Source: a virus
IMG/VR virus record: IMGVR_UViG_2974641675_000001
Coordinates: 66,260 to 130,259 of that record
Length of the DNA stretch: 64,000 bases
Reading direction: 5' to 3' (one strand)
The position numbers and the translations under genes were made by a program. Numbering within the stretch: the first letter of the stretch is position 1; the number at the start of each line of letters is the position of its first letter. The notes under the pieces were generated by a model. It was not told the origin of the DNA. It made no database searches and saw only the letters and a list, made by a program, of their open reading frames with translations. Positions 12,962 through 25,317 of the stretch are shown here, in pieces.

Positions 12962-13157
12962 GAGAAAACTCCGTAAGAGTGCGTTTTTCCGCTTTTTATG
13001 CGGTTTAAAATGGCTCAAATAATGTGATCTACTATTAGGCTAAGTAGTATTTTTATACGACCAATGCCCTCCGTTCCCACGGCGGAAGGAGGCGGTGGTC
13101 CGCGTGGACGTCTTGGCCGACAAGTATTCCGAGACATCATCAAAGGACGATTGTTCA

Positions 13158-14762
13158 ATGGCTACCGCTTACCAGTATCCGTTCGATCCCAGCGGCACTT
13201 CGTCTGCCAACCGGATCTTGAACGAGCAGCATGTCATCACCGCTGCAAACTTTCGGGATTACCACTACGTAATCCCGAACTTTGCCCCTTTCTTTGAGGG
13301 CGACTTCGACATCAAAATGCAGTTTCCTGATGGCTCGATTCGTCCTCTGACGCAAGGCGTCGACTTCTACTTCTCGAACCAGTTCTTGGACGCTTCGCGT
13401 GCCTGTGCGAAGCCTGTCTATGGTTCGATCTCGTTCCTTGACACCGATACCGCCGGTATCCTGTCGATCAACTACAACACTGTTGGTGGCGAGTGGAACA
13501 TCTCGCCGACAGAAATCTCGCGTATCTTGGCCGAAGAGCTGCGCAACCCCCGTATTACGACCTGGGAACAAATCACGTATTTACCGGAACGTTTCCCGGT
13601 AGTCGATCACGCGTGGGATCTGATCGACATGGTGGGTATGTCTCCGGTTGTGGCTGCCATCGAAGCACTGCGCGACGCGGTTGTGACGAAGAACGGTGGT
13701 AACTTCACCGATCACATCAACAACTACTCGAACCCGCACAACACCACGGCGGCGCAAGTAGGGTTGGGCAATCTGTTCAACTATCCGATTGCTACGACGG
13801 CTGATGCCCAGGCTGGCACGAGTAACTCGTTCTACATGACACCCGCGCGTGTCAAGGACGAAATCATGGCATTCGCTACGCCGCTGTCGCACTTGACGGA
13901 TTACACCAATCCGCACCAAGTGACAAAGACCCAGGTGGGGCTGAGCAATGTGGCGAACTTCGCAGTTTCGACCACGGCAGAAGCTCAAGCAGGTGCTGTT
14001 GATACGTCTTACATGACGCCGCTGAAGACAGCACAAGCCATCACGCAGCAGGCCGGTTCAGCGCTCGCAGCTCATGTTGCGAACCAGCAGAACCCGCACA
14101 ACGTGACGAAAGATCAGGTTGGCTTGTTCAACGTCCAGAACTATCCGATCGCTACGCAACAGCAAGCGATGGCTGGTACGGACAACGCCTCGTACATGAC
14201 GCCGCTGCGCACAGCACAGCTGGTAGCTCAGATCTCTTCAGTGGCGCTACAGAACCACTTGAATGACTTTACCAACCCTCACCAAGTGACGGCCGGTCAG
14301 GTGGGTCTTGGTAATGTGCAGAACTACGGTATCGCTACTCAGGCTGATGCACAAGCCGGCGTGAGCAATACGCTGTACATGACGCCGGGTCGTGTCGCTG
14401 ATGCCATCAATGCACTGGCTACGCCGCATGCTCACTTGCTGGATATGAACAATCCGCACCAAGTGACCGCGGCTCAAGTCGGCGCATACACGACTACTCA
14501 GACGGATACGCTGTTGGGTGGTTACGTGCGGCTGACCGATCAGTGGGTAGCGGGTGAAACCAAAGCTGCCTTCATTGCAGAAGTGCTGCAGGGTACGGCG
14601 AACAATGCTTCGATGGTTTACGGTTTCACGGAAGCCCAACTGGCCGCCGATCTCGAAACCAATTACTTCGATAACGCTTACGCCACCATTGCTGCATTCA
14701 ATGCATTGGCCCAGCGCGTGACCGACATCGAAACGGCCCTCAACAGCATCACCGTTGTGTAA
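13158..14762 (+). CDS. Tail fibre protein with NPH/QVGL repeats
   Basis: Four full and one partial ~55-60 aa repeats H-x5-NPHxVTxxQVGLxNVxNYxIAT...AG...YMTP; N-terminus paralogous to the next gene. Confidence 0.75.
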   Translation: MATAYQYPFDPSGTSSANRILNEQHVITAANFRDYHYVIPNFAPFFEGDFDIKMQFPDGSIRPLTQGVDFYFSNQFLDASRACAKPVYGSISFLDTDTAGILSINYNTVGGEWNISPTEISRILAEELRNPRITTWEQITYLPERFPVVDHAWDLIDMVGMSPVVAAIEALRDAVVTKNGGNFTDHINNYSNPHNTTAAQVGLGNLFNYPIATTADAQAGTSNSFYMTPARVKDEIMAFATPLSHLTDYTNPHQVTKTQVGLSNVANFAVSTTAEAQAGAVDTSYMTPLKTAQAITQQAGSALAAHVANQQNPHNVTKDQVGLFNVQNYPIATQQQAMAGTDNASYMTPLRTAQLVAQISSVALQNHLNDFTNPHQVTAGQVGLGNVQNYGIATQADAQAGVSNTLYMTPGRVADAINALATPHAHLLDMNNPHQVTAAQVGAYTTTQTDTLLGGYVRLTDQWVAGETKAAFIAEVLQGTANNASMVYGFTEAQLAADLETNYFDNAYATIAAFNALAQRVTDIETALNSITVV

Positions 14763-14798: not shown

Positions 14799-14814
14799 TT
14801 TGAGCGAACAAGTC

Positions 14815-16092
14815 ATGACTATTCCGATCTATCGCTATCCCTTGGATGGCACCGGCACCAGCCCGGATAACCTGGTGGTTGGAGAAGAACACCAGCTCTC
14901 CAACCGAGCAATTCGTTGCGTAGCGCCGACCTACGGTGGCTTCTACGCTGAATCCGCAGTGGTGACGGACTTCAACACTGGCGTACCGCTGGTGCGCGGT
15001 GTTGACTACTACTTTGGTGAGCTGTTCGAGTTCCCCACTGGTCGTTACGGTAAGGAAATCTTCGGCCTGATCGTTATCACCAAGCCGAACGTTGCTGCCG
15101 TTTCGATCAATTACCAAGCACTGGGTGGTGATTACTCCTATTCCATGGACGCAATCATCGCCATGATCGACAACCTGAATCTGGACACGCGTCCGGTGGA
15201 ATGGGGTGCGATCATTGGTCGTCCGGCGCTGTTCGATCCGGCAACGCACTGGCACGATGCTGGTGACATCTACGGCTTCGAATACGTAGTGAGCGCGCTG
15301 ATCGATCTGCGCAACGCCATCCTGACGGGTGACGTGGCCAGCCACGATGAGATCTATCGCTACATCGATCGCTGGGCAGCTCAGCAGAGCGCGGCCATCC
15401 AAGCAGTTTCCGATGCACTGCACACGCACATCGTCGACTACACCAATCCGCACCAAACCACGAAGGCACAGGTAGGGTTGGGACTGGTGTCGAACTTTGC
15501 GACAGCGCTGCAAGCTGACATGAATACTGGTACGGCGAACAACCTGTTCGTGACGCCAGATATCGTTGCCGCGTACGTGACTCAGCAGGCAGTGAATCCG
15601 CTGCTTGCTCACATTGCCGACAAGGGTAACCCGCACCAGACTACCGCAGCACAAGTGGGACTGGGTAATGTCCAGAACTATGGTGTTGCTTCCCAGCCGG
15701 ACATGAATGCCGGTACGCGTGACGACGTCTATCTGACGCCGCTGAAGGTCGCGACCTATGTGACAAACGTCGCGGTTAACCCGATGAATGCGCACATTGC
15801 CAATACCAACAATCCGCATGCCGTGACACAGGCACAAGTTGGGTTGGGTAGTGTTGCGAACTATCCGGTCGCTACTCAGGCTGAAGCGCAAGCTGGAACG
15901 GCTAACAACCGCTACATGACTCCCTGGCTCGTAAACCAAGAAGTCATGCAGATGCTCAACAACGGTGCATTCGACGGTCGCTATATGCGGTATGGCACCG
16001 CCACTGATGGTTCGACCTGGGTTAGCGCTGGTATCGCCTACGTGTTCGTATCGGGAGCATGGCGACAGTTCTGGCCGCCTGTGTGGCAGTAA
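14815..16092 (+). CDS. Second tail fibre protein with NPH/QVGL repeats
   Basis: Three repeats of the same unit; N-terminus YRYPLDGTGTSPDNLV resembles YQYPFDPSGTSSANRI of the previous gene; aromatic C-terminus YVFVSGAWRQFWPPVWQ. Confidence 0.75.
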   Translation: MTIPIYRYPLDGTGTSPDNLVVGEEHQLSNRAIRCVAPTYGGFYAESAVVTDFNTGVPLVRGVDYYFGELFEFPTGRYGKEIFGLIVITKPNVAAVSINYQALGGDYSYSMDAIIAMIDNLNLDTRPVEWGAIIGRPALFDPATHWHDAGDIYGFEYVVSALIDLRNAILTGDVASHDEIYRYIDRWAAQQSAAIQAVSDALHTHIVDYTNPHQTTKAQVGLGLVSNFATALQADMNTGTANNLFVTPDIVAAYVTQQAVNPLLAHIADKGNPHQTTAAQVGLGNVQNYGVASQPDMNAGTRDDVYLTPLKVATYVTNVAVNPMNAHIANTNNPHAVTQAQVGLGSVANYPVATQAEAQAGTANNRYMTPWLVNQEVMQMLNNGAFDGRYMRYGTATDGSTWVSAGIAYVFVSGAWRQFWPPVWQ

Positions 16093-16100
16093 GAGATGTG

Positions 16101-16139
16101 AAAACCACTCCGCCCAAAAGGTGGAGTGGTTTTTATGTC
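16101..16139 (+). terminator. Hairpin/terminator after the second fibre gene
   Basis: AAAACCACTCC...GGAGTGGTTTT followed by TATGTC. Confidence 0.6.
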
Positions 16140-16167: not shown

Positions 16168-16545
16168 GTGGCCACCACCTCCTCTACAACCACTGATGTG
16201 CAAGGGTATGACATCAATACTCTCCGCAACACAATTAACAGTGTGCGGGCTCGTATTGCTGCTGGTCAACCCATCAGTGCCAACCAAATCGCTGACCTTG
16301 CTTGGGTGTACAACACTTGGATTCAGCATACCCACAACTACTACGACTATTACTGGATCGCTTACGGTAATACGTCTCCCTATGGCACCACTGCTGTATG
16401 GAAAACTTCTGGCAACGTTGGTGTAGGGTATTTCTCACCACCTGGGGCTGGACAAACTGTTCAAGCTGCTCATGTGAATGGCTTAGCGGGTCTGGTCAAT
16501 GCGATCCGATCCCATACCCACTATTCGCCGGACGGCAGTTACTAA
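16168..16545 (+). CDS. Small fibre-tip-like protein with two HTH (HxH) modules
   Basis: GTG start with AAGGA RBS; modules GQPISANQIADLAWVYNTWIQHTH and GQTVQAAHVNGLAGLVNAIRSHTH. Confidence 0.7.
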   Translation: MATTSSTTTDVQGYDINTLRNTINSVRARIAAGQPISANQIADLAWVYNTWIQHTHNYYDYYWIAYGNTSPYGTTAVWKTSGNVGVGYFSPPGAGQTVQAAHVNGLAGLVNAIRSHTHYSPDGSY

Positions 16546-16628
16546 ACATTCCGTTAGGTAAAAAAGCAAGTGCGTTTTTACCTATCATTCGATTTTTATA
16601 GTAATCCATTTCGAGGACGAATCCACCA

Positions 16629-16826
16629 ATGTCCAATTATCTCTCCACTGTAACAACGGCTGCGGCGCCAGCTAACACTGTGGGGCAAGGCCAAGCGGTA
16701 CAACCAGCCACGATGAACCAAATGGCTGCTGTACTGGATTCATTGCTGAGCCACACGCACGTCTTTTATGACAACTACGGCAGCAACTGCAATTGTAACT
16801 GCGCCTGCACCCGAGGATCTCTGTAA
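16629..16826 (+). CDS. Cys-rich putative RiPP precursor/modification target (65 aa; HTH module plus NCNCNCAC tail)
   Basis: GAGGA RBS; ends ...SHTHVFYDNYGSNCNCNCACTRGSL; TAATG coupling to the next gene; lies upstream of four radical-SAM genes. Confidence 0.75.
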   Translation: MSNYLSTVTTAAAPANTVGQGQAVQPATMNQMAAVLDSLLSHTHVFYDNYGSNCNCNCACTRGSL

Positions 16827-17713
16827 TGAAAACTGTCTTTATCAAAAGCGGCGGCTACTACGAAACGCCAGGTGTCGCTGTCTCCGGCGCTATCAACGAC
16901 GCCTTCGACTTCAACGTGAGTCAGCATTGCCGTTCGAATGCGCTGTTCATGCTCGACTATGTCAGTCGCGAATACCGCCTCAGCCTTACCGTTGCCTCTG
17001 GTGACATGAAAGATGCGTTCGCGCGTCTCGACATGGATCTGATCACCAAGGCCGCGGAAGAGCATGGCTTCTCTTATGTCGGCCTGGTGGCTGACGAAAA
17101 GGCGATGATGGCTCGCCCGGATGAATTCCTGCGCGACTTGTCCGTCGTGACCGTCTGCAAGGAAACCGGCAAGTTCCTCGATGCCAAGTCCGGCACCGCT
17201 CTGACCGGCAACAACATCACACCGGTGATCTACTGCGTGAAGATGGCTGACAGCACGTACGCCATGATCCTGAGCCAGATGGCCAACGTGATGCCGAGCA
17301 TGGTCGACAATCCGAAGGTGGGTCGTGACGACATGAACGTCATCGTGGTCAATGACGGCGATGCCATGCGTAGTCAGTTCGTGGACGTCAGCTTCCACGG
17401 CGCTACCAAGCATTTCCGCAACAACGACCTCGTTACTGGTTTCGCAGTGTTTGCTTGGCCGAATGCTCTGATTGAAGTTAATATCTTCAAGGACACGCCG
17501 CTCGCCGCTGAGTTCAAGAAGAACTTCGAACTGGAAGTCGACAGCAGCTTTGATGCCAAGATCGTCGACGGCAAGGTCGTTATCCAGATGCCGCCTTCGT
17601 GTCGCACTGGCTATCTGTCGATCAAGCTGAAGACCACACCGCTGTACGAAGACGTCTCGTCGCGCGAGATCAAGGAAATGCTTTCGTTCGACTTCATCGT
17701 GACGGTTGTTTAA
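16826..17713 (+). CDS. Orphan 295-aa protein translationally coupled to the Cys-rich peptide
   Basis: TAATG overlap and strong C-ending codon bias; no motif recognised. Confidence 0.75.
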   Translation: MKTVFIKSGGYYETPGVAVSGAINDAFDFNVSQHCRSNALFMLDYVSREYRLSLTVASGDMKDAFARLDMDLITKAAEEHGFSYVGLVADEKAMMARPDEFLRDLSVVTVCKETGKFLDAKSGTALTGNNITPVIYCVKMADSTYAMILSQMANVMPSMVDNPKVGRDDMNVIVVNDGDAMRSQFVDVSFHGATKHFRNNDLVTGFAVFAWPNALIEVNIFKDTPLAAEFKKNFELEVDSSFDAKIVDGKVVIQMPPSCRTGYLSIKLKTTPLYEDVSSREIKEMLSFDFIVTVV

Positions 17714-17726
17714 CCACTCCTATTCG

Positions 17727-17765
17727 AAGCCGACAGATGACTTGTTCATCTGTCGGTTTTATGCT
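17727..17765 (+). terminator. Hairpin/terminator between the peptide operon and the rSAM genes
   Basis: AAGCCGACAGATGA-CTTGT-TCATCTGTCGGTTT then TATG. Confidence 0.6.
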
Positions 17766-17782
17766 CCCATCAGGACACCATC

Positions 17783-19396
17783 ATGCAAGAACAAGTTATC
17801 AAAATCCATCGCAAGAAAGAACCCATCGACTTCAAGAAACCCGGGGAGCGTATCAAAACCATCGCCGAGGTCAAGGACATTCTGTTCGCTGAACTGAAAG
17901 TCCTGAACGTGATCCTGACCAACGCCTGCAATCTCTCGTGTAGCTACTGCTTCGAACAGCACAAACAGGACTACGGCAAGTTCACCCAAGAACAACTGAA
18001 GCAAGTGTATGACTTCCTGCTGAACGCCAACACTCAGCCGCATCGCCACTTCCAGTTCTTTGGTGGTGAGCCGTTGGCGCAGAAGAAGAAGATCCTCGAC
18101 TTCTGTCGCGACCACAAGGACGAACTCTCGGCCAACAAGGAGCAGGTGCGTGTGTCGATCGTGACCAACGCGCTGCTCCTGACACCGGAATTCATCGAGG
18201 AATACTGCAGCTACGATTTTACGTCGCTGGTCATTTCTTTGGACACGGATGATGCCGAGTCGAACCGTCGCGAACTGACGCAAGAGAACATCGACTACAT
18301 CTTCGAGATGATCAAGCTGTTGCCTGACTCGATGATGCGCGATGCTCACCACGTCTCGATTCGTTGCACCATCAACGAAGAGAGCGTACCGCACCTCGAT
18401 CGCTTCATGGAGCGTCTGTATGCGTCCGGCGTGCGCAATTTCGTGATCCATCCGCTGATCCTCGCTAAGGATCAAGGCGCCATTGAATGGCAGCCGGGTA
18501 TGTGGGAGCGGATGTACCATTCACTGCATCAAGCCATGCATCGCTGGGACGACTTCAAGATCACCTGGGCCGAAGGCGTGGGTGTGAAAGGCGAGTCCAA
18601 CTGCATGGTCGGTTCGGACATGATTGCGATGGACGCCTCGGGTGACTTCAGCGGTTGCTACTTCCTGACCAACCTGAAAGAAACCTACGGCAACACGATG
18701 CTCGGCAATCTGTTCCGCGACGAGATCTACATCGATCGTTACGTCGAGTTCCAGCAAGCCTATGCCAAGTCGCTGGAACACGAACAGTGCCAGTCGTGCC
18801 ACCTCAAGAACTTCTGCTACCAGTGCCCGGCTGGTAATGCAGCTACTGGTGGTTCGCTGTTCCGTCCGGACTCGATGTGCAAGCGCATTGTGGAACTGTT
18901 CCTCACTCTGCGTCAGGACTTCAACCGTAAGGCTTTGCTCCAACAGTTCAAGGAGCTGGAAGAAGCTGTTGTCCAGCAAGGTCCGATTGCTCAGTCTCGT
19001 GCAGTGCTGCATTGCATCTACCGCGAGTTCACTGGTGAGATTCAGGACAACGCCATCATTGACGCTTATGAAGAACTGCCGGCACCGCACACGCTGCTCT
19101 TCATGTTCAAGCAAATGCTGGAAGGCGGTTTGACTAGCATTCCGCCGCTCGACGTGTGGGTGTCTGGACTACTGCGCCGCAACCCTCGTCCGGAGGAAAG
19201 CATCGATCCGTACGAGTTCTACCTGTTCTTGTGCAAGCTACGTGGTATCCCGATCGATTTCAAATACACTCCGAATGGTTCTGTTCAAGAGCAGAACTAC
19301 TTTATCACCCTGACTCACTTGCTGATTTTCGATGAAAGTCGTTATCTCAGCAAATACGATCCGGAACACAGCCGGTCTCGTATTCTCGACCTGTAA
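17783..19396 (+). CDS. Radical SAM/SPASM-domain enzyme with a C-terminal extension
   Basis: CNLSCSYC (CxxxCxxC), FFGGEP, SPASM cysteines NCMVG..SGCYF..CQSCHLKNFCYQC..MC. Confidence 0.9.
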   Translation: MQEQVIKIHRKKEPIDFKKPGERIKTIAEVKDILFAELKVLNVILTNACNLSCSYCFEQHKQDYGKFTQEQLKQVYDFLLNANTQPHRHFQFFGGEPLAQKKKILDFCRDHKDELSANKEQVRVSIVTNALLLTPEFIEEYCSYDFTSLVISLDTDDAESNRRELTQENIDYIFEMIKLLPDSMMRDAHHVSIRCTINEESVPHLDRFMERLYASGVRNFVIHPLILAKDQGAIEWQPGMWERMYHSLHQAMHRWDDFKITWAEGVGVKGESNCMVGSDMIAMDASGDFSGCYFLTNLKETYGNTMLGNLFRDEIYIDRYVEFQQAYAKSLEHEQCQSCHLKNFCYQCPAGNAATGGSLFRPDSMCKRIVELFLTLRQDFNRKALLQQFKELEEAVVQQGPIAQSRAVLHCIYREFTGEIQDNAIIDAYEELPAPHTLLFMFKQMLEGGLTSIPPLDVWVSGLLRRNPRPEESIDPYEFYLFLCKLRGIPIDFKYTPNGSVQEQNYFITLTHLLIFDESRYLSKYDPEHSRSRILDL

Positions 19397-19409
19397 GGTA
19401 ACTTAACCC

Positions 19410-20492
19410 ATGAACTACGATAACATCCAGGACGTCTCGATCTATGTGGGTCCTGCGTGCAACTTCAACTGCACGTATTGTGATCGCGCCTACGTAAACA
19501 ACGTAGGTGTGGATTCTGCTGAATGCGATCCGGCCTTGGTCGACTTCGTAGTTGATGTGGTGCTGCACTCCGAGCGTCCGATGGTTTCCTTCCACGGTGG
19601 GGAACCATTTGTTTACATCAAGACCATGGAGAAGATCATCGAGGCCGTGCTCGAACGCGTACCAGATTTCAAGGAACGCGGCGCGATCTTCTTCATCCAG
19701 ACCAATGGCTCGCTGATTACCCGTCAGCGAGCTTTCTTCGAGAAATACAAAGAGGTGCTCTACGTGAGCATCTCTTACGACTTCAAGTACCAGGGCGATA
19801 ACCGCACTGCGTACGACATTGACTCAACCCTGCAACTCTTGAATGATCTGGGGATTGGGACGAACCTGCAATACGTGATTCCGACCTACGACAAGAACGC
19901 TTGCGATCACGCAGCGTACTCGGAAGTCATGCGGTTGTTCTCCAAGTTTAAGCTGGGGCAACTGAACCTGATCCTGTTGCGTCACATTCGGCAGGAAGAT
20001 AAATTCGAAACAGTGATCGCGGATGAGAGCATCGACCTAAAGGGATTCTTCCTCGGCTTCATGCGCTTCGTCCAGTTGCTGTACGTCTCAGGTATCAATG
20101 TCCACATCGACGGTCATGCCAACAAGATCGATAAGAACTATTACAACAACCATAAGCAAATGGTGCTCGCTCCAAATGGCCTGATCGTACCGGAGTACCA
20201 GTTCATCGAGTATGATGATTACGATTTCGCTATCGGTCGCTGGAAGCCTTACGTGGAGATCTCTCGTGATCAGATGCCGGAGAAGGCCGCCAAGAAGATT
20301 CGCAAAGAGTGCCAGACTTGTCCGATGGCGGACATCTGTGGTTTGCGTTATCACTACGCAATGTTCGATATGGACCCGCCAACTCCGCAACGGTGCAAGG
20401 AGTTCTACTCTCTGAACCTGATCGCGATCAAGCACCTGTACAAACTGAAAGAGCAACCCACCCTTCTCCACCATCTGGGAGTTCAGCAATGA
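19410..20492 (+). CDS. Radical SAM enzyme with a partial SPASM-type Cys cluster
   Basis: CNFNCTYC, FHGGEP, QTNG and C-terminal CQTCPMADIC...RC. Confidence 0.88.
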   Translation: MNYDNIQDVSIYVGPACNFNCTYCDRAYVNNVGVDSAECDPALVDFVVDVVLHSERPMVSFHGGEPFVYIKTMEKIIEAVLERVPDFKERGAIFFIQTNGSLITRQRAFFEKYKEVLYVSISYDFKYQGDNRTAYDIDSTLQLLNDLGIGTNLQYVIPTYDKNACDHAAYSEVMRLFSKFKLGQLNLILLRHIRQEDKFETVIADESIDLKGFFLGFMRFVQLLYVSGINVHIDGHANKIDKNYYNNHKQMVLAPNGLIVPEYQFIEYDDYDFAIGRWKPYVEISRDQMPEKAAKKIRKECQTCPMADICGLRYHYAMFDMDPPTPQRCKEFYSLNLIAIKHLYKLKEQPTLLHHLGVQQ

Positions 20493-21637
20493 GTCGCGCT
20501 ATCACGATCGAGAATCCGAAAGAGCACTTCATCCGTTACGACGGACTGCTCAACGTCCAGTATGACGTGACGTTTTCGATCTTCAAGAAGTACACCTGTC
20601 AAGCCGGGTGCAAGATCTGTTATATCAAGGATGACTTCCTGCCTAACGAGCAGTTCAAGAAGTATGTCCCGATAGCATCACACGTCAACACGCAGAGCTA
20701 CGGCGACCGCCTGCTAGAATTCCTGTCATACTTTCAGATGGCAGCAATCATCGACGACCTGTACTTTGTGCGGGAAGAACATCCGGAGCTGTACAAGTTC
20801 TATCAGGAGTATAGCGAGGCCTTCTGGCTGAGTTCCATGACGGACAACGCAGTGTTCCGTCACCTGCCGATTATTGAGGATGACCTTCGTGTCGTCGGTC
20901 TACGGGAGATCTCGCTCTCCGAGGAATTCTTGTATAAAGTCAACCAAACGAAGTTCTTTAACGCACTGGATAAAATTCAGAGGCGCGCTAAGATATTGAA
21001 AATAAAGGTAATACTGTCGGGTCTCCCTGGCATCGCGATTCGTGGCAACGATTTGATGCTCTGGTGTCAGAACAATCAAGTGCTCCTAGAGAAGCAATAC
21101 GAGCACGGTGTTGAGCCGAATGGCCGCAGCTTCCTGTCTCAGTTGCCGAACACGCGTTACAGCGATCGCAGCCAGGAAACGCACTTCACTGAAGAGATCA
21201 CCTACAGTGAGAATTCTGGTGAGATGCTGTACCCAATTCACTCTGAGTCGATCTTCTTGCAGTACGATGACTTCTACTCGGAGCTGAAGTCTGCCACGCG
21301 TGAAGACCGCAGTGCGCCGTTTGCCAAGCTGGATGATTTTGTCCAGAGTCCGCAAGGCTTCTTGGCTAAGGTGCTGGAAGGTAAGCTGACGGATTACCGC
21401 AAGTATGCTTCGTGGATGCAGAACAAAGATCACGACTACTTCCGTTACTTTGACTATGTGGCGAATAACGTGGTAGTCAATCATGACTTCAACTTCATCC
21501 CGCGTATCGCTCTGCGGCCAGATAGCGTGTACTATCACAAGCTGATGGAACACACGAAGCTGGTGGATACCCAATACGGGCTCGTGGATTCTGCCGCGAG
21601 CAAGGTCGTTCCAATTTACTCTTTCAGAGAACAATGA
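20489..21637 (+). CDS. Degenerate radical-SAM-like protein
   Basis: CQAGCKIC near the N-terminus but no GGEP and no SPASM cysteines; ATGA overlaps at both ends. Confidence 0.65.
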   Translation: MSRAITIENPKEHFIRYDGLLNVQYDVTFSIFKKYTCQAGCKICYIKDDFLPNEQFKKYVPIASHVNTQSYGDRLLEFLSYFQMAAIIDDLYFVREEHPELYKFYQEYSEAFWLSSMTDNAVFRHLPIIEDDLRVVGLREISLSEEFLYKVNQTKFFNALDKIQRRAKILKIKVILSGLPGIAIRGNDLMLWCQNNQVLLEKQYEHGVEPNGRSFLSQLPNTRYSDRSQETHFTEEITYSENSGEMLYPIHSESIFLQYDDFYSELKSATREDRSAPFAKLDDFVQSPQGFLAKVLEGKLTDYRKYASWMQNKDHDYFRYFDYVANNVVVNHDFNFIPRIALRPDSVYYHKLMEHTKLVDTQYGLVDSAASKVVPIYSFREQ

Positions 21638-22893
21638 GCATAAGCACATTCCGAATCGAGAAGTCGGGTGAAGTGTTTGGTTACGACAACACACTGAACT
21701 CGATCCTCGATGCAAACAACCAGCCTGTGGGTCGAGCTTCGTCTCTCCTGGCTCAGGCTCCGTCGTTCGAGAAATCGAATACTCCTACCACCATCAAGGT
21801 ACTGCTCGGGCACGCCTGTAACTACAGCTGCAGCTACTGCGTACAGAAGGACATCGGTAATCCGGCTGAACGTCCGAAGAACATCATGACCAAGGAGTTG
21901 ATCAAGAAGATGCGCGCGCATCTCGATCTCTCCAACGTCACGCGGATTGAACTGTGGGGCGGCGAGACGCTGCTCTACTGGCCGGATATCGTTGAGATCA
22001 TCTCAGCACTGGATCGGGAAGGCATTACGTGGTACATCCCGACCAACGGTACGATCCTGCGGATGAAGCACGCTGAGTTCTTCCGCCAGATGAAAGGCGA
22101 GATGACCATCGGCATCAGTCACGACGGTCCGGGTCACGTATCGCTGCGTGGTCCGGAGTTCCTGCATCGCAAGATCGATGAGTTGGGTGCGCTGCAAGAC
22201 GCCAAGGTACGGTTCAGCTTCAACGCTGTGATCAGTACCACGAACTACGATCTGTTTGCCATCGATGACTACTTCCGCTTCTTCCTGCTCAAGGCAGACC
22301 TCGATCACGTAGGGCTGGGCTTCGAGCTGGGGCGGACGTATGAGACGGGTGCTTGCGCTACCGAGTCGCACGTGATCACACTGGAGCAGATCCCGCACTA
22401 TCGGTCGATTCTGAAAGCGTATCTCAAGCACCATCTCGATGCGTTCAAGAAAGGTCAAGCGCCGGAAGACATCGATGCCGATACTCGACTGTTCAACAGC
22501 CTGTTCCATTTCAGCAATGGTGTGATTCCGTACGCGAAGTCGCTAGTTCAGCAAAGCCCCATTCGCTATTACAGCAACTGCGGCACTGATGATCCGAACC
22601 TGATCACGCTGGACATGAATGGCGCTATCCGCGTTTGTCAGAACACGGACGAGAGCTACATCTACGGCAACGTTGCTAATATCGGCGCTGCTAAGATGCA
22701 GAAGGTCGATTACAGCAAGAACGACTTCTGCAAGGACTGCTCGGTTTTGCGGCTGTGCAATCGTAGCTGCCCGATCGAACTGCCATACGAAACCTTTTTG
22801 ACCAACCACCATATCGAGAACGCTCACTACAGCGAGATACAACTCTCGGCGTTTGAGTTGTTGTTCGATAGCCCTATCACCAAAGTGAACTGA
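21634..22893 (+). CDS. Radical SAM/SPASM-domain enzyme
   Basis: CNYSCSYC, WGGET, PTNG, SHDG and SPASM NCG..VC..CKDCSVLRLCNRSC. Confidence 0.9.
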   Translation: MSISTFRIEKSGEVFGYDNTLNSILDANNQPVGRASSLLAQAPSFEKSNTPTTIKVLLGHACNYSCSYCVQKDIGNPAERPKNIMTKELIKKMRAHLDLSNVTRIELWGGETLLYWPDIVEIISALDREGITWYIPTNGTILRMKHAEFFRQMKGEMTIGISHDGPGHVSLRGPEFLHRKIDELGALQDAKVRFSFNAVISTTNYDLFAIDDYFRFFLLKADLDHVGLGFELGRTYETGACATESHVITLEQIPHYRSILKAYLKHHLDAFKKGQAPEDIDADTRLFNSLFHFSNGVIPYAKSLVQQSPIRYYSNCGTDDPNLITLDMNGAIRVCQNTDESYIYGNVANIGAAKMQKVDYSKNDFCKDCSVLRLCNRSCPIELPYETFLTNHHIENAHYSEIQLSAFELLFDSPITKVN

Positions 22894-22901
22894 GAAAACT
22901 C

Positions 22902-23738
22902 ATGTCCGACATTCTTGACCGTTTTGTCCTGCCCGAAACTGCAGCCCAAGTTACCGAGCTGCGCGCCCAGCTGGACGCGATGAAGAACCATCGTGTCTTC
23001 GGTATGGTGAAAACCATCGACGACCTGCAAACCTTCATGTCGCTCCACGTCTACGCCGTGTGGGACTTCATGACGCTGGCCAAGCGCCTGCAGTGCGAGT
23101 ACACCGGCATCAAGTTCCCGTGGGTGCCGCCGCGCCTCCCCAAGGTCGCCCGTCTGATCAACGAGATCATCCTGGCCGAAGAGTCCGACGACAACGGTGA
23201 GGGCGGTACTTGCAGCCACTTCGAACTGTACGCCATGGCCATGCAAGAAATCGGTGACATCGACATGGAGTCGCTCGAAGCATTCGTAACGAACCTTCGT
23301 TACGGTATCCCGCCGGTGGAATCTGCTAACCGTGCACTGATCAAGGCCGATCCGGAGTTCCGTGCGACTGTCACCAACTACATCGGCGATACTACTGCCG
23401 TGGCTCGCACTGGCCTGCCGGAAGAAGTGCTGGCCTACTTCGTCTTTGGTCGTGAAGATTCGATCCCGGCGATGTTCAGCAACCTGCTTGAGCAGATGGG
23501 TGATCTGGCTGCCAAAGCGACGACCTTCACGTACTACTTGAAGCGCCATATCCAACTCGACGGTGAAGACCACAGTGTCAAAGCTGCTGAGATGCTGTCG
23601 CTCGAACTGGAAGGCAATCCGATTCGCACGCGCACCGCACTGATCGCTGGTATCAATGCCGCCAAGTCCCGCATTGCTTTGTGGGATGCGATTGCTGCGA
23701 AGCTGGAAGCAACTCAAGCAGCGACGGCAACTGCCTAA
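22902..23738 (+). CDS. DUF3050 / heme-oxygenase-like di-iron enzyme
   Basis: Motifs HVYAVWDFM, WVPP, RLINEIILAEESD, SHFELY, GREDSIPAMF and YYLKRHIQLDGEDH recognised as the DUF3050 pattern. Confidence 0.8.
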   Translation: MSDILDRFVLPETAAQVTELRAQLDAMKNHRVFGMVKTIDDLQTFMSLHVYAVWDFMTLAKRLQCEYTGIKFPWVPPRLPKVARLINEIILAEESDDNGEGGTCSHFELYAMAMQEIGDIDMESLEAFVTNLRYGIPPVESANRALIKADPEFRATVTNYIGDTTAVARTGLPEEVLAYFVFGREDSIPAMFSNLLEQMGDLAAKATTFTYYLKRHIQLDGEDHSVKAAEMLSLELEGNPIRTRTALIAGINAAKSRIALWDAIAAKLEATQAATATA

Positions 23739-23749
23739 TCGACTCACGA

Positions 23750-23796
23750 CGGCATAAAGGAGAGTAGAGGCCAGACGGCCTCTACTCTTTATGTCG
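23750..23796. terminator. Bidirectional GCATAA/TTATG-flanked hairpin closing the rSAM operon
   Basis: CGGCATAAAG-G-AGAGTAGAGGCC-AGAC-GGCCTCTACTCT-TTATGTCG between convergent genes. Confidence 0.7.
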
Positions 23797-24600: not shown

Positions 24601-25215
24601 CTAGAACTTGTTGCAGAAAACAGTCGCGTACAGCTCATCGAGCTTGGCGCGCTGTTCCGGCGTGTAGACATCGTTGCCACCGAAGATGGTGTCGGCCAGA
24701 GTGATCGGCAGGGGAGGCCACTCGGTGATCGTTTCCGGTACTTCCAGATCGATCTTGACCCAGTCCTTCGGATTGCCTTGGGCATCGATGAAGACATCCA
24801 CTTCCCACTTCAGGTCAGTGCCTTCGATCGGGAAGGTGTAACGGATCTTATCCATCGACTCGCCAGTGATCAGGCGGAAGACTTCGTGCAGATCCTTGGA
24901 GACGGGCACGGATACTTCATCGCACTCCCCGCGACCAGTGTAGGCCTTGCCAGTCAGGGTGTAACGTACCTGGCCCATGCCGTTAGTTTCACGGACACGG
25001 ATCGTACCGCCCTTGCCTTTGAGCGAGGATTGCTTCTGGGTTTCTTGGGAGACCGCTTTCTGCAGCTCTTCCGGATTGGTCAGACGACCGTACCAGACGT
25101 ACTCTTTTTCTTTGGCTTTCTCGCCGTTTTCGAGATCTTCCAGCGCAACGTTCAGCAGACCGAAAGACAGAGATGCCAGTCCGAGCGGGGACTGAGTCAG
25201 GATGTTGGTTTTCAT
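24601..25215 (-). CDS. CYTH/triphosphate tunnel metalloenzyme-like protein
   Basis: EKEY, IRVRE, KAY, MDKIRY, WEVDVF and WVKIDLEV match CYTH strand motifs; N-terminal VALEDLE. Confidence 0.7.
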   Translation of the reverse strand: MKTNILTQSPLGLASLSFGLLNVALEDLENGEKAKEKEYVWYGRLTNPEELQKAVSQETQKQSSLKGKGGTIRVRETNGMGQVRYTLTGKAYTGRGECDEVSVPVSKDLHEVFRLITGESMDKIRYTFPIEGTDLKWEVDVFIDAQGNPKDWVKIDLEVPETITEWPPLPITLADTIFGGNDVYTPEQRAKLDELYATVFCNKF

Positions 25216-25317
25216 AGTGAGGAATAGGTGCATGGAGTAAGACATAAAAATAGGCACCGGCATAAAAAGCCTACTAAGGCACCCGAAAGCACCCTAGTAG
25301 GCGTTCACGTCTACCCA

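What the first reader, a model, noticed from the sequence alone, without database searches (positions are those of the whole stretch)
16168..23738. Phage-encoded RiPP-like cluster: Cys-rich peptide, four radical-SAM proteins and a heme-oxygenase-like oxidase, fused to the tail-fibre module
Seen: a co-oriented, tightly coupled run (TAATG/ATGA overlaps). It runs from a 65-aa peptide ending NCNCNCACTRGSL (codons 16785-16808) through an orphan, three rSAM enzymes with GGE motifs and C-terminal SPASM-type cysteines and a degenerate rSAM, to a DUF3050 enzyme. It sits directly after two tail-fibre genes and is closed by a bidirectional hairpin. Established: rSAM/SPASM enzymes next to Cys-rich short peptides make thioether cross-links in sactipeptides and ranthipeptides (e.g. 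SCIFF maturases; NxxcB links Cys to Asn C-beta). Inference: this jumbo phage carries a multi-enzyme peptide-maturation pathway acting on a virion-associated peptide rather than a secreted antimicrobial, since no exporter or peptidase is encoded. I do not know of a characterised phage system of this kind.
Basis: partly seen in the sequence, partly recalled or inferred. Interest (0 to 1): 0.92.

Follow-up and report, generated by a model that had tools for sequence, protein, structure and literature searches.

The report
Radical-SAM cassette maturing phage fibre-tip peptide
Ralstonia jumbo phage RP12 encodes an overlooked 65-residue protein ending in alternating cysteines, followed by four radical-SAM enzymes and an iron oxidase; the same cysteine tail and its enzyme recur beside or on tail fibres in hundreds of phages, which points to an undescribed enzymatic modification of the virus's host-binding apparatus.

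Summary
The window is Ralstonia phage phiRP12, a 279,845-bp phiKZ-like phage. After two fibre-like genes it encodes a 125-aa protein and a 65-aa protein ending NCNCNCACTRGSL, which is missing from the published annotation. Then come a 295-aa protein, three radical-SAM enzymes with SPASM-type cysteines, a fourth divergent radical-SAM protein and a DUF3050 di-iron protein.

New here:
- The whole cassette recurs in at least 56 viral contigs, and 53 of them keep the peptide.
- The last enzyme (ORF79) groups with single radical-SAM genes that sit downstream of C-x-C-x-C tails in unrelated phages and prophages (54/65 viral and 47/69 bacterial loci; odds ratio 14.6, p=1e-53).
- Those tails end real tail-fibre proteins, or lie directly before a self-cleaving Hint domain.
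- The "orphan" belongs to a conserved family, and the "degenerate" enzyme keeps its cluster cysteines and the radical-SAM fold.

Best reading: the enzymes cross-link the tail of a fibre-associated protein, probably through thioethers. Neither the chemistry nor presence in the virion has been tested. I found no published description. This scan has already noted the same theme on other DNA, including this cassette in two other genomes.

The parts
13095..14762 (+). Fibre-like protein 1 (phiRP12 ORF72, 'YomR'), context only
   Evidence: phrog_2163 and phrog_13857, E 1e-145 and 1e-99. Repeated NPH..T..QVGL fibre repeats.
14800..16092 (+). Fibre-like protein 2 (ORF73, 'YomR'), context only
   Evidence: phrog_2163, E 7e-145. 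A homologue precedes the cassette in L001.
16095..16139 (+). Terminator-like hairpin between the fibre genes and the cassette
   Evidence: 20-bp stem followed by a T-rich tail.
16168..16545 (+). 125-aa protein (ORF74) with two HxHxxxD modules; a frequent companion of the cassette
   Evidence: The family alignment A6 has invariant H54, H56, D60, G67, N68, H116, H118 and D122. In four loci the gene lies between the enzyme genes. In L001 it carries a Gly-rich insert and is 386 aa long.
16629..16826 (+). 65-aa Cys-repeat protein ('pep'), the presumed substrate; absent from the published annotation
   Evidence: There are 40 distinct homologous C-termini with invariant HxH, D and C positions, 3-6 Cys, and an xRGx[LIVF] end. 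Published ORF74 ends at genome position 82804 and ORF75 starts at 83085, with nothing annotated between them.
16785..16808 (+). Codons for NCNCNCAC, the alternating-Cys core
   Evidence: Mixed synonymous codons. Similar repeats lie upstream of the orthologous enzyme in 101 of 134 testable loci.
16826..17713 (+). 295-aa all-beta protein (ORF75); conserved neighbour of pep, function unknown
   Evidence: hhalign gives 98.4-98.8% probability against the roughly 300-aa family that sits beside pep in other loci. AF2 pLDDT is 82.7 and the model is made of beta-sandwiches. No convincing structural match was found.
17783..19396 (+). Radical SAM/SPASM enzyme rS1 (ORF76, 537 aa) with the full 7-Cys SPASM pattern
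   Evidence: PF04055 71.8 bits. Best NCBIfam hit is PapB at 125 bits, below the 340 cut-off. Best solved relative is CteB 5WGG, E 2.5e-18. The cysteines are invariant in A10.
19410..20492 (+). Radical SAM enzyme rS2 (ORF77, 360 aa) with a partial four-Cys auxiliary motif
   Evidence: PF04055 43.1 bits. CxxCx5C plus one later Cys. Forms its own clade with 99% SH-aLRT support.
20489..21637 (+). Divergent fourth radical SAM protein (ORF78, 382 aa); no GGE motif and no auxiliary cysteines
   Evidence: C37, C41 and C44 are invariant in 18 homologues. AF2 pLDDT is 82.3. The top 20 VIA matches are all radical SAM enzymes: ChlB Z 9.9, SuiB 9.7, MoaA 9.7, anSME 9.4. The nearest Atlas clusters are also radical SAM.
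21634..22893 (+). Radical SAM/SPASM enzyme rS4 (ORF79, 419 aa); orthologue of the single enzyme that travels with C-x-C tails in other phages
   Evidence: In the tree, rS4 and the single-enzyme loci fall on one side of a branch with 99% SH-aLRT support. Six SPASM Cys are invariant and the seventh is His here. The family has 238 clusters at E<=1e-30.
22902..23738 (+). DUF3050 / MgoB-like haem-oxygenase-fold di-iron protein (ORF80); a frequent but optional cassette member
   Evidence: PF11251 230.8 bits. E88/E94, H106, E185, H216, D220 and H224 are conserved. This is the CADD-like ligand set described in PMC4520260. The gene is absent or moved in some loci.
23761..23788 (.). Perfect 12-bp hairpin between convergent genes
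   Evidence: Read directly from the sequence. The stop codon of the minus-strand gene is at 23789.

Best explanation
The cassette is a dedicated maturation system for a small protein associated with the tail fibre. The 65-aa protein is the substrate. It has a variable N-terminus, a conserved helix, an HxHxxxD motif, an aromatic/acidic FYDDY-type motif, an alternating C-x-C-x-C tail and an xRGxL end.

ORF79 (rS4) is the enzyme that acts on the C-x-C tail, because its orthologues are the only enzyme kept next to such tails in unrelated phages and prophages. It most likely installs thioether cross-links between Cys sulfur and a carbon of the intervening Asn, Asp, Gln, Glu or Ala residues. This would resemble ranthipeptide and sactipeptide maturases, or QhpD acting on a protein subunit. 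The result would be a rigid, covalently laddered C-terminal tip.

The three other radical SAM proteins (ORF76, 77, 78) and the di-iron DUF3050 protein are add-ons found only in the jumbo-phage version. They probably modify further Cys residues or the conserved His/Tyr/Asp motif. The mature protein, probably together with the HxH-bearing 125-aa protein and the 295-aa beta-sandwich protein, would be built into or onto the fibre encoded just upstream.

Shown: gene content, conservation, co-occurrence, orthology and folds. Inferred: the enzyme-substrate pairing, the chemistry and the location in the virion.
For: Identity and anatomy.

Cassette conservation:
- One syntenic contig was read in detail, with a 73-aa peptide carrying a longer CN repeat.
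- About 33 loci came from the rS4 scan.
- 56 loci came from the rS1 scan, and 53 of them have the peptide.
- The peptide family has 40 distinct C-termini with invariant H, H, D and C positions.

Link to fibres:
- The Achromobacter phage JWF fibre protein gp028 carries NCNCDCNCNCSC directly before a Hint domain (PF05203, 47.5 bits), and the rS4 homologue lies two genes downstream.
- The Ralstonia phage RSP15 side tail fibre ends in NCQCGN, three genes before the homologue.
- Prophage loci have central fibre J, a long-tail-fibre distal subunit, a tape measure protein and an integrase around the pair.

Statistics: 54/65 viral and 47/69 bacterial-genome loci have a C-terminal C-x-C ORF on the same strand within 6 kb upstream. 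At ORF level this is 108/5331 against 39/27636, odds ratio 14.6, Fisher p=1e-53. Residues between the Cys are N 43%, A 16%, D 12%, Q 9%, E 4%.

Orthology of rS4 with the single enzymes.

Enzyme class:
- The nearest curated families are peptide or protein Cys cross-linkers: PapB, SCIFF/CteB, QhpD and CcpM.
- CteB is the best solved relative of rS1.
- ORF78 has the radical SAM fold and the cluster cysteines.
- The DUF3050 metal ligands are intact.

No protease or exporter lies in the locus. No published description was found.
Against: - There is no biochemical or mass-spectrometric data for any member.
- Every match to a characterised maturase family is far below its curated cut-off (for example PapB 125 against 340, and anSME 49 against 349), so the chemistry cannot be transferred.
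- In this phage the repeat sits on a free-standing 65-aa protein, not on a fibre.
- RP31 virion proteomics did not detect ORF68-76. That survey was shallow, and the peptide was not in its database.
- A terminator-like hairpin separates the fibre genes from the cassette.
- About a quarter of the more distant bacterial homologues have no recognisable C-x-C partner.
- The loci were collected using rS4 as the query, so the tree grouping is partly by construction.
- An earlier scan note records that a similar claim on other DNA partly failed a later check.
Confidence: 0.55

Rival explanations
1. The 65-aa protein is the precursor of a free RiPP-like product, such as an intracellular effector, a counter-defence or signalling peptide, or a bacteriocin released at lysis. 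It would not be a virion part, and its place near the fibre genes would be a matter of late co-expression only.
For: It is short and stand-alone, with a variable N-terminus, a conserved middle and a Cys-rich C-terminal core, much like a leader plus core. It has a multi-enzyme tailoring set including an oxidase. A hairpin separates it from the fibre genes. It was not detected in RP31 virions. Some single-enzyme loci carry a Trp halogenase and a 2OG oxygenase downstream, which looks like natural-product chemistry.
Against: No leader peptidase or exporter lies in any locus inspected. The 'leader' is the most conserved part and carries an HxHxxxD module shared with the neighbouring 125-aa protein. 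The same repeat and orthologous enzyme sit on 300-525-aa fibre proteins and before Hint domains. The module is embedded in tail modules in myo-, sipho- and Ackermann-type phages and in prophages.
Confidence: 0.2
2. The enzymes do act on the C-x-C tail, but the chemistry is not thioether formation. Alternatives are oxidation of Cys to formylglycine as in anSME, C-C or C-O cross-links of the His/Tyr motif (cyclophane-type), epimerisation or methylation.
For: anSME is among the better NCBIfam matches of rS4 and of its JWF homologue (49-51 bits). Cyclophane-forming maturases (YhhB, XyeB, AmcB) also appear in the hit lists. ORF78's best structural match is the triceptide enzyme ChlB. The peptide has invariant His, Asp and Tyr residues next to the Cys repeat. 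rS4's best solved relative by sequence is the cyclopropyl synthase entry 8VPO.
Against: All these matches are weak and mostly restricted to the core. The feature shared by all loci is the Cys repeat with Asn, Asp, Gln or Glu between the Cys, which are the acceptor residues of known non-alpha thioether (ranthipeptide-type) links. The anSME recognition motif C/S-x-P/A-x-R is absent.
Confidence: 0.15
3. The C-x-C tail and the HxH motifs are metal- or Fe-S-binding elements of a structural protein and are not modified. The radical SAM proteins would serve another purpose, such as modifying a host receptor, a nucleotide or a cofactor, or would act as non-catalytic assembly chaperones.
For: HxH motifs bind iron in trimeric fibre tips such as T4 gp37 (my own knowledge, not tested here). 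Alternating Cys on one face of a strand could chelate metals. ORF78 lacks the GGE motif.
Against: The catalytic CxxxCxxC triad is invariant in all four proteins. GGE and the auxiliary-cluster cysteines are conserved in three of them. The enzymes belong to the peptide-maturase branch of SPASM enzymes. The strict pairing of a repeat with a dedicated enzyme across unrelated phages is what enzyme-substrate pairs look like.
Confidence: 0.1

Closest known systems
Ranthipeptide maturation (PapB/freyrasin; NCBIfam NF047865)
   Same: A radical SAM/SPASM enzyme acts on a repeat of Cys spaced with acidic or amide residues. PapB is the best NCBIfam hit of ORF76 and ORF77.
   Different: The scores (125 and 58 bits) are far below the 340-bit cut-off. 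The repeat is C-x-C, not C-x3-D/E. The substrate is a phage fibre-associated protein. There is no protease or exporter. Four radical SAM proteins and a di-iron oxidase are present instead of one enzyme.
SCIFF/sactipeptide-type maturase CteB (PDB 5WGG; TIGR03974)
   Same: It is the best solved sequence relative of ORF76 (E 2.5e-18 over residues 38-352). It has the full SPASM cysteine set and a Cys-rich substrate.
   Different: The score is 69.9 bits against a 425-bit cut-off. ORF76 has no N-terminal RRE-length extension. Instead it carries a roughly 160-aa C-terminal extension.
Streptococcal NxxC system (NxxcB: Cys to Asn C-beta thioether)
   Same: NCNC contains overlapping N-x-x-C units, and Asn is the commonest residue between Cys (43%).
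   Different: No sequence or model of NxxcB was available to test homology. That system makes a small secreted peptide under quorum-sensing control (from my own knowledge).
QhpD / quinohaemoprotein amine dehydrogenase gamma subunit (TIGR03906)
   Same: A radical SAM/SPASM enzyme puts Cys-Asp/Glu thioethers into a protein that stays part of a larger assembly. This is the closest functional analogy to cross-linking a structural protein. It is the third-best NCBIfam hit of ORF76 (73.8 bits).
   Different: The score is below the 453-bit cut-off. The substrate and biology are unrelated.
Anaerobic sulfatase-maturating enzyme (anSME, TIGR03942, PDB 4K36)
   Same: The SPASM architecture is shared. The JWF homologue was annotated as anSME in GenBank. 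ORF78's model aligns to 4K36 with Z 9.4.
   Different: The scores are 49-51 bits against a cut-off of 349. The C/S-x-P/A-x-R target motif is absent.
CXXX-repeat and other Cys-ladder phage tail modules noted earlier in this scan (TIGR04115-type maturases)
   Same: The theme is the same: Cys-repeat tails on fibre-like proteins, with dedicated radical SAM enzymes inside tail modules.
   Different: The repeat period differs (every second rather than every fourth residue). The enzyme family differs (TIGR04115 scores only 26-49 bits here). The HxHxxxD module, ORF78 and DUF3050 are additional.
HxH iron sites of trimeric fibre tips (T4 gp37 needle) and Hint/intein-like self-cleaving C-terminal domains of fibres
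   Same: HxH motifs occur in small proteins encoded in a fibre module. In JWF-type fibres a Hint domain starts at the Cys straight after the repeat, so the repeat would become the mature C-terminus.
   Different: Neither trimer formation, metal binding nor cleavage was tested. The Asp at +4 and the preceding helix are specific to this family.

Membership tests
Radical SAM superfamily (PF04055) | CxxxCxxC cluster motif and a Pfam score above the 29.5-bit gathering threshold | tested here: met
   ORF76, ORF77 and ORF79 score 71.8, 43.1 and 41.9 bits. The triad is invariant in alignments A1, A4 and A10.
Radical SAM superfamily (PF04055), for ORF78 | Cluster motif plus the partial TIM-barrel fold (there is no Pfam hit) | tested here: met
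   CxxxCxxC is invariant in 18 homologues. The AF2 model has pLDDT 82.3 and its top 20 VIA matches are all radical SAM enzymes, Z 5.8-9.9. Sequence-profile tests failed, and the GGE motif is absent.
SPASM subfamily (PF13186 / TIGR04085) | Seven-Cys motif C-x9-15-G-x4-C ... C-x2-C-x5-C-x3-C ... C for two auxiliary clusters | tested here: inconclusive
   ORF76 has all seven Cys, but PF13186 scores 16.6 bits against a 21.5-bit cut-off. ORF79 has six, with His at the seventh position in this phage and Cys in 15 of 18 relatives. ORF77 has four and ORF78 has none. The JWF and prophage homologues pass TIGR04085.
PapB-type ranthipeptide maturase (NF047865) | Score of at least 340 bits, and a C-x3-D/E repeat substrate | tested here: not met
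   The best score is 125 bits. The substrate repeat is C-x-C.
SCIFF maturase (TIGR03974) | Score of at least 425 bits, and a neighbouring SCIFF precursor | tested here: not met
   69.9 bits. The neighbouring peptide matched no NCBIfam or Pfam model.
anSME (TIGR03942) | Score of at least 349 bits, and a C/S-x-P/A-x-R target | tested here: not met
   49.4 bits. The target motif is absent from the peptide.
Thioether-cross-linked peptide (sacti- or ranthipeptide) as a product class | An S-C link between Cys and another residue's carbon in the mature product | not testable with these tools
   This needs mass spectrometry or NMR of the co-expressed product.
RiPP pathway in the usual sense | A precursor with a leader that is removed by a protease and a product that is exported | tested here: not met
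   No protease or transporter gene lies in the window's cassette or in the related loci inspected. The 'leader' is the most conserved region.
DUF3050 (PF11251), haem-oxygenase-like di-iron clan | A Pfam score above 22.2 bits, and a CADD-like set of Glu, His and Asp ligands | tested here: met
   230.8 bits. E88/E94, H106, E185, H216, D220 and H224 are invariant or nearly so in 14 cassette homologues. The ligand pattern follows PMC4520260.
Phage tail-fibre accessory module | It lies in the tail-fibre gene block, and the target motif occurs on proteins with fibre homology | tested here: met
   In the window it follows two phrog_2163 fibre-like genes. The fibres of JWF, RSP15 and the prophages carry the repeat.
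Virion component (for the 65-aa protein itself) | Detection in purified particles | not testable with these tools
   The only data are the RP31 gel-band LC-MS/MS survey of 32 proteins, which did not include ORF68-76 and had no entry for the unannotated peptide.

The most novel reading that the evidence does not exclude
Many tailed phages finish their host-binding fibres enzymatically. A dedicated radical SAM/SPASM enzyme would turn the alternating Cys tail at the extreme C-terminus of a fibre or fibre-tip protein into a ladder of thioether cross-links, possibly between the three chains of a trimer. In the jumbo-phage version, three more radical SAM proteins and a di-iron oxidase would build a more elaborate, metal-binding tip. 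This would be a new class of post-translational virion maturation, and the first structural use of RiPP-type chemistry in a virus.
Probability: 0.4. Interest if true: 0.9.

Novelty: new variant of a known kind. Interest (0 to 1): 0.78.

Why it matters
Radical SAM/SPASM cross-linking is known from secreted peptides and from one bacterial enzyme subunit. It is not known from virus particles. If phage fibre tips are covalently stapled by their own enzymes, this would explain the 'highly unusual' radical SAM genes reported in structural gene clusters of jumbo phages (PMC12390700, PMC2853527). It would also add a step to fibre assembly that matters for engineering receptor-binding proteins, and it would provide a large, untapped set of peptide-modifying enzymes (238 clusters at 50% identity for ORF79's family alone). 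phiRP12 and phiRP31 are cultured phages with a tractable host, so the idea can be tested directly. The substrate gene is currently missing from their annotation.

Tried and rejected
- blastn of the cassette against 50,697 phage records found nothing. tblastn with DUF3050 and with the 125-aa protein found nothing useful. Close relatives appear to be withheld from that collection.
I report no verdict on binding.
- Sequence-profile links of ORF78 to radical SAM enzymes failed. hhalign covered only 16 columns, and a PDB profile search gave no radical SAM hit. The fold search settled the point instead.
- The ORF75 model has no convincing match in the PDB or BFVD beyond generic Ig-like sandwiches, TM about 0.2-0.3. 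The Atlas search was also uninformative.
- Accessory proteins of the single-enzyme loci (JWF gp029, RSP15 gp047 families) are not homologous to ORF75. There is therefore no universal 'helper' protein.
- No NCBIfam or Pfam model matches any C-x-C tail protein.
- A membership link to the His-Xaa-Ser system (HxsB/HxsC) was considered because of the HxH motifs. Scores are only 29-61 bits against cut-offs of 268-370, and the repeat type differs, so I rejected it.
- My first naive gene calling by ORF length picked wrong-strand ORFs. I replaced it with tblastn mapping.

Full report
IDENTITY. The window is bases 66260-130259 of a 279,845-bp virus record. The size, gene coordinates and annotations match Ralstonia phage phiRP12 (AP017924), a phiKZ-related jumbo phage described in PMC5468394. 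In that paper, ORF74 (125 aa), ORF75 (295 aa), ORF76 'radical SAM', ORF77 'Fe-S oxidoreductase', ORF78, ORF79 'MoaA' and ORF80 'MgoB' lie at exactly the positions found here. A structure search returned 'Ralstonia phage RP12' at 100% identity for ORF75. The paper lists these genes under 'other genes' and assigns them no role.

OBSERVATION.
- Two fibre-like genes lie upstream (phrog_2163, E about 1e-145).
- The 125-aa ORF is at 16168-16545.
- The 65-aa ORF is at 16629-16826 and ends NCNCNCACTRGSL. The repeat uses mixed synonymous codons.
- The peptide's stop codon overlaps the next gene's start in a TAATG.
- Three proteins pass PF04055 and carry GGE motifs.
- A 382-aa protein has no Pfam hit.
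- DUF3050 scores 231 bits.
- A perfect 12-bp hairpin lies between the convergent genes.
- The 65-aa ORF is not in the published annotation, which has a gap between ORF74 and ORF75.

Corrections:
- A 20-bp terminator-like hairpin (16095-16139) separates the fibre genes from the cassette.
- Only ORF76 has all seven SPASM cysteines. ORF77 has four. ORF79 has six, with His at the seventh position in this phage and its two closest relatives, and Cys in 15 others.

THE CASSETTE IS CONSERVED AS A UNIT. An IMG/VR contig (L001) has the same order: fibre, then a 386-aa version of ORF74 with a Gly-rich insert, then a 73-aa peptide with a longer CN repeat. A GIY-YIG-like gene sits on the other strand, followed by the ORF75 homologue, the four enzyme genes and DUF3050. 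A profile scan with ORF79 relatives gave about 33 such loci. A scan with ORF76 relatives gave 56, many on contigs of 128-379 kb. Of these, 53 encode the peptide, and the other three are truncated or rearranged. The usual order is [ORF74] - peptide - [ORF75-like] - ORF76 - ORF77 - ORF78 - ORF79 - [DUF3050]. DUF3050 is missing from some loci, and in two it sits between ORF76 and ORF77.

The peptide family has 40 distinct C-termini. Its pattern is T-[FY]-x-Q-M-L-x-[VI]-L-x-x-L-x-x-H-x-H-x-[FY]-x-D-D-Y-x-[TS]-x-C-(x-C)2-5-x-R-G-x-[LIVF]. The two His, the Asp and the first Cys are invariant, and the N-terminal 25 residues vary. ORF74's family has two invariant HxHxxxD modules, so the same module occurs three times across the two small proteins. 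This agrees with an earlier first-reader note.

THE 'ORPHAN' AND THE 'DEGENERATE' ENZYME. ORF75 is homologous to a roughly 300-aa family that sits next to the peptide in nearly all cassette loci, sometimes in two or three copies (hhalign 98.4-98.8%, 275-280 columns). Its AF2 model (pLDDT 82.7, pTM 0.81) consists of beta-sandwich domains and has no convincing solved or viral match. I read it as a structural or binding protein of unknown role.

ORF78's family keeps an invariant CxxxCxxC but has no GGE motif and no auxiliary cysteines. Sequence profiles do not link it to radical SAM enzymes. Its AF2 model (pLDDT 82.3, pTM 0.83) does: it aligns over about 250 residues to ChlB, SuiB, MoaA, anSME and SkfB with Z 9.0-9.9, and the 20 best matches are all radical SAM enzymes. 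The ESM Atlas neighbours agree.

THE KEY COMPARATIVE RESULT. ORF79 has homologues in unrelated cultured phages, and there too they follow fibre genes.
- In the Achromobacter siphophage JWF, the 483-aa fibre protein gp028 contains NCNCDCNCNCSC directly followed by CFPAGT. That is the start of a Hint self-cleaving domain (PF05203, 47.5 bits). Cleavage there would leave the repeat as the mature C-terminus.
- In the Ralstonia phage RSP15 (Ackermannviridae), the side tail fibre ends in NCQCGN.

Among the 80 best IMG/VR loci and 80 bacterial-genome loci (of 225 and 122 confirmed relatives), the same-strand ORFs upstream of the enzyme end in tails such as NCNCNCxC, CACDCxC or CECQCQC. These tails sit on small proteins of 65-190 aa, sometimes as two or three tandem paralogues. 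They also sit on 300-400-aa proteins with fibre PHROG hits, and on 480-525-aa fibres before a Hint domain. The bacterial loci I inspected are prophage tail modules with central fibre J, a long-tail-fibre distal subunit, a tape measure protein and an integrase.

Counted on non-identical loci with at least 1.5 kb upstream, 54 of 65 viral and 47 of 69 bacterial-genome loci have such an ORF within 6 kb. At ORF level this is 108 of 5331 against 39 of 27636 elsewhere in all six frames (odds ratio 14.6, Fisher p=1e-53). Between the cysteines, Asn makes up 43%, Ala 16%, Asp 12%, Gln 9% and Glu 4%. The median number of Cys is five.

A quick maximum-likelihood tree puts ORF79 and all the single-enzyme loci on one side of a branch with 99% SH-aLRT support. 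ORF76 and ORF77 form separate clades. One caveat applies: the single-enzyme loci were retrieved with an ORF79-type query, and the branches are long.

ORF79's family has 238 clusters at 50% identity with E<=1e-30 among 1.84 billion representatives. Among 50,697 deposited phage genomes (with this phage's close relatives withheld), only JWF, Achromobacter phage 2-1 and RSP15 carry it.

MECHANISM. The conserved pairing supports the C-x-C tail as substrate and ORF79 as its enzyme. The chemistry is inferred, not shown.
- The nearest curated families are Cys cross-linking maturases: PapB, SCIFF/CteB, QhpD and CcpM.
- CteB is the best solved relative of ORF76.
- The residues between the cysteines are those used as acceptors in non-alpha thioethers.
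- All scores are far below family cut-offs, and ORF79's best solved relative by sequence is a cyclopropyl synthase entry (8VPO). Other outcomes therefore remain open: formylglycine, cyclophanes on the His/Tyr motif, or epimerisation.

ORF76, ORF77, ORF78 and DUF3050 occur only with the version of the peptide that carries the HxH and FYDDY motifs. This suggests they act on that part or on additional cysteines. DUF3050 keeps a CADD-like di-iron ligand set. From my own knowledge, CADD-type proteins can oxidise protein tyrosine, which makes the invariant Tyr a candidate target. That is speculation.

Virion location rests on analogy with the fibre-borne repeats and on gene context. The RP31 virion survey found 32 proteins and none of ORF68-76. 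It was shallow, missed the fibre-like proteins too, and had no entry for the peptide.

COMPARISON WITH WHAT IS KNOWN. No NCBIfam or Pfam model covers the tail proteins. No curated model covers ORF79's family above cut-off, apart from the generic SPASM domain in relatives. Five full-text searches found no description of radical SAM modification of phage fibres. The literature only notes 'highly unusual' numbers of radical SAM genes in structural clusters of an Aeromonas jumbo phage (PMC12390700) and in Campylobacter phages (PMC2853527).

Within this scan the theme is not new. Earlier agents reported Cys-repeat fibre tips with radical SAM enzymes in hundreds of phages, C-x3-C ladders in SPN3US-like phages, and, as unfollowed first-reader notes, this same peptide-plus-four-enzymes-plus-DUF3050 cassette in two other genomes. 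One note records that a related claim on other DNA partly failed a later check. I could not see which part.

VERDICT. This is a new variant of radical SAM peptide or protein maturation, tied to phage tail fibres, and it can be tested in a cultured phage.
- That the peptide is the substrate of this cassette: about 0.85.
- That it is fibre- or virion-associated: about 0.65.
- That the chemistry is thioether formation: about 0.45.

Noticed in passing
window 16629-16826: The 65-aa Cys-repeat gene is missing from the published phiRP12 and phiRP31 annotations, which show a gap between ORF74 and ORF75. No proteomic search done so far could have detected it.
   Followed up: yes
L001 7890-8951 (minus strand): In the closest relative, a 353-aa gene with a GIY-YIG-like N-terminus and a Lys/Arg-rich repeat tail is inserted between the peptide gene and the ORF75 homologue. 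It looks like a homing-endonuclease insertion inside the cassette.
   Followed up: no
L001 6412-7572: The ORF74 homologue here is 386 aa long. A roughly 260-aa glycine-rich domain is inserted between the two HxHxxxD modules, reminiscent of the Gly-rich domains of fibre-tip adhesins.
   Followed up: no
L039 10098-12274 and about 9 similar loci: In one single-enzyme subfamily, the substrate is a 135-160-aa protein very rich in Asn and Cys. A Trp-halogenase-family flavoprotein (PF04820, E 4e-101) and a putative 2OG-Fe(II) oxygenase follow the radical SAM gene.
   Followed up: partly
L005 4685-6136 (JWF gp028); also L046, L047, L053, L057, L059, L062, L064, L067, L086: In these fibre proteins the Cys repeat is immediately followed by a Hint/intein-like domain whose first Cys continues the repeat. 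Self-cleavage would expose the repeat as the C-terminus, or activate it as a thioester.
   Followed up: partly
window 21634-22893, residue 392: The seventh SPASM cysteine of ORF79 is His in phiRP12, L007 and L088, but Cys in 15 other orthologues. This may be a change of ligand on the second auxiliary cluster.
   Followed up: partly
L007 9264-10070 and about 10153-10848: The closest relative has two tandem DUF3050 paralogues after the last radical SAM gene. The window has one.
   Followed up: no
L048 5634-6514; L081-L083 5654-6536; L093 5330-5828; L122 6499-7050: Several loci carry two or three tandem paralogous small proteins (77-99 aa). Each ends in its own C-x-C tail, and one radical SAM gene follows them.
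   Followed up: partly
window 24601-25263 (minus strand): The convergent neighbour two genes downstream (phiRP12 ORF82, equivalent to RP31 ORF78) is one of the proteins detected in RP31 virions. Structural genes therefore flank the cassette on both sides.
   Followed up: no
L088 (contig labelled as a Bdellovibrio sp. MAG, 25.6 kb): This contig carries the full jumbo-phage-type cassette with 50% identity to ORF79. It is probably a phage contig binned into a bacterial MAG.
   Followed up: no
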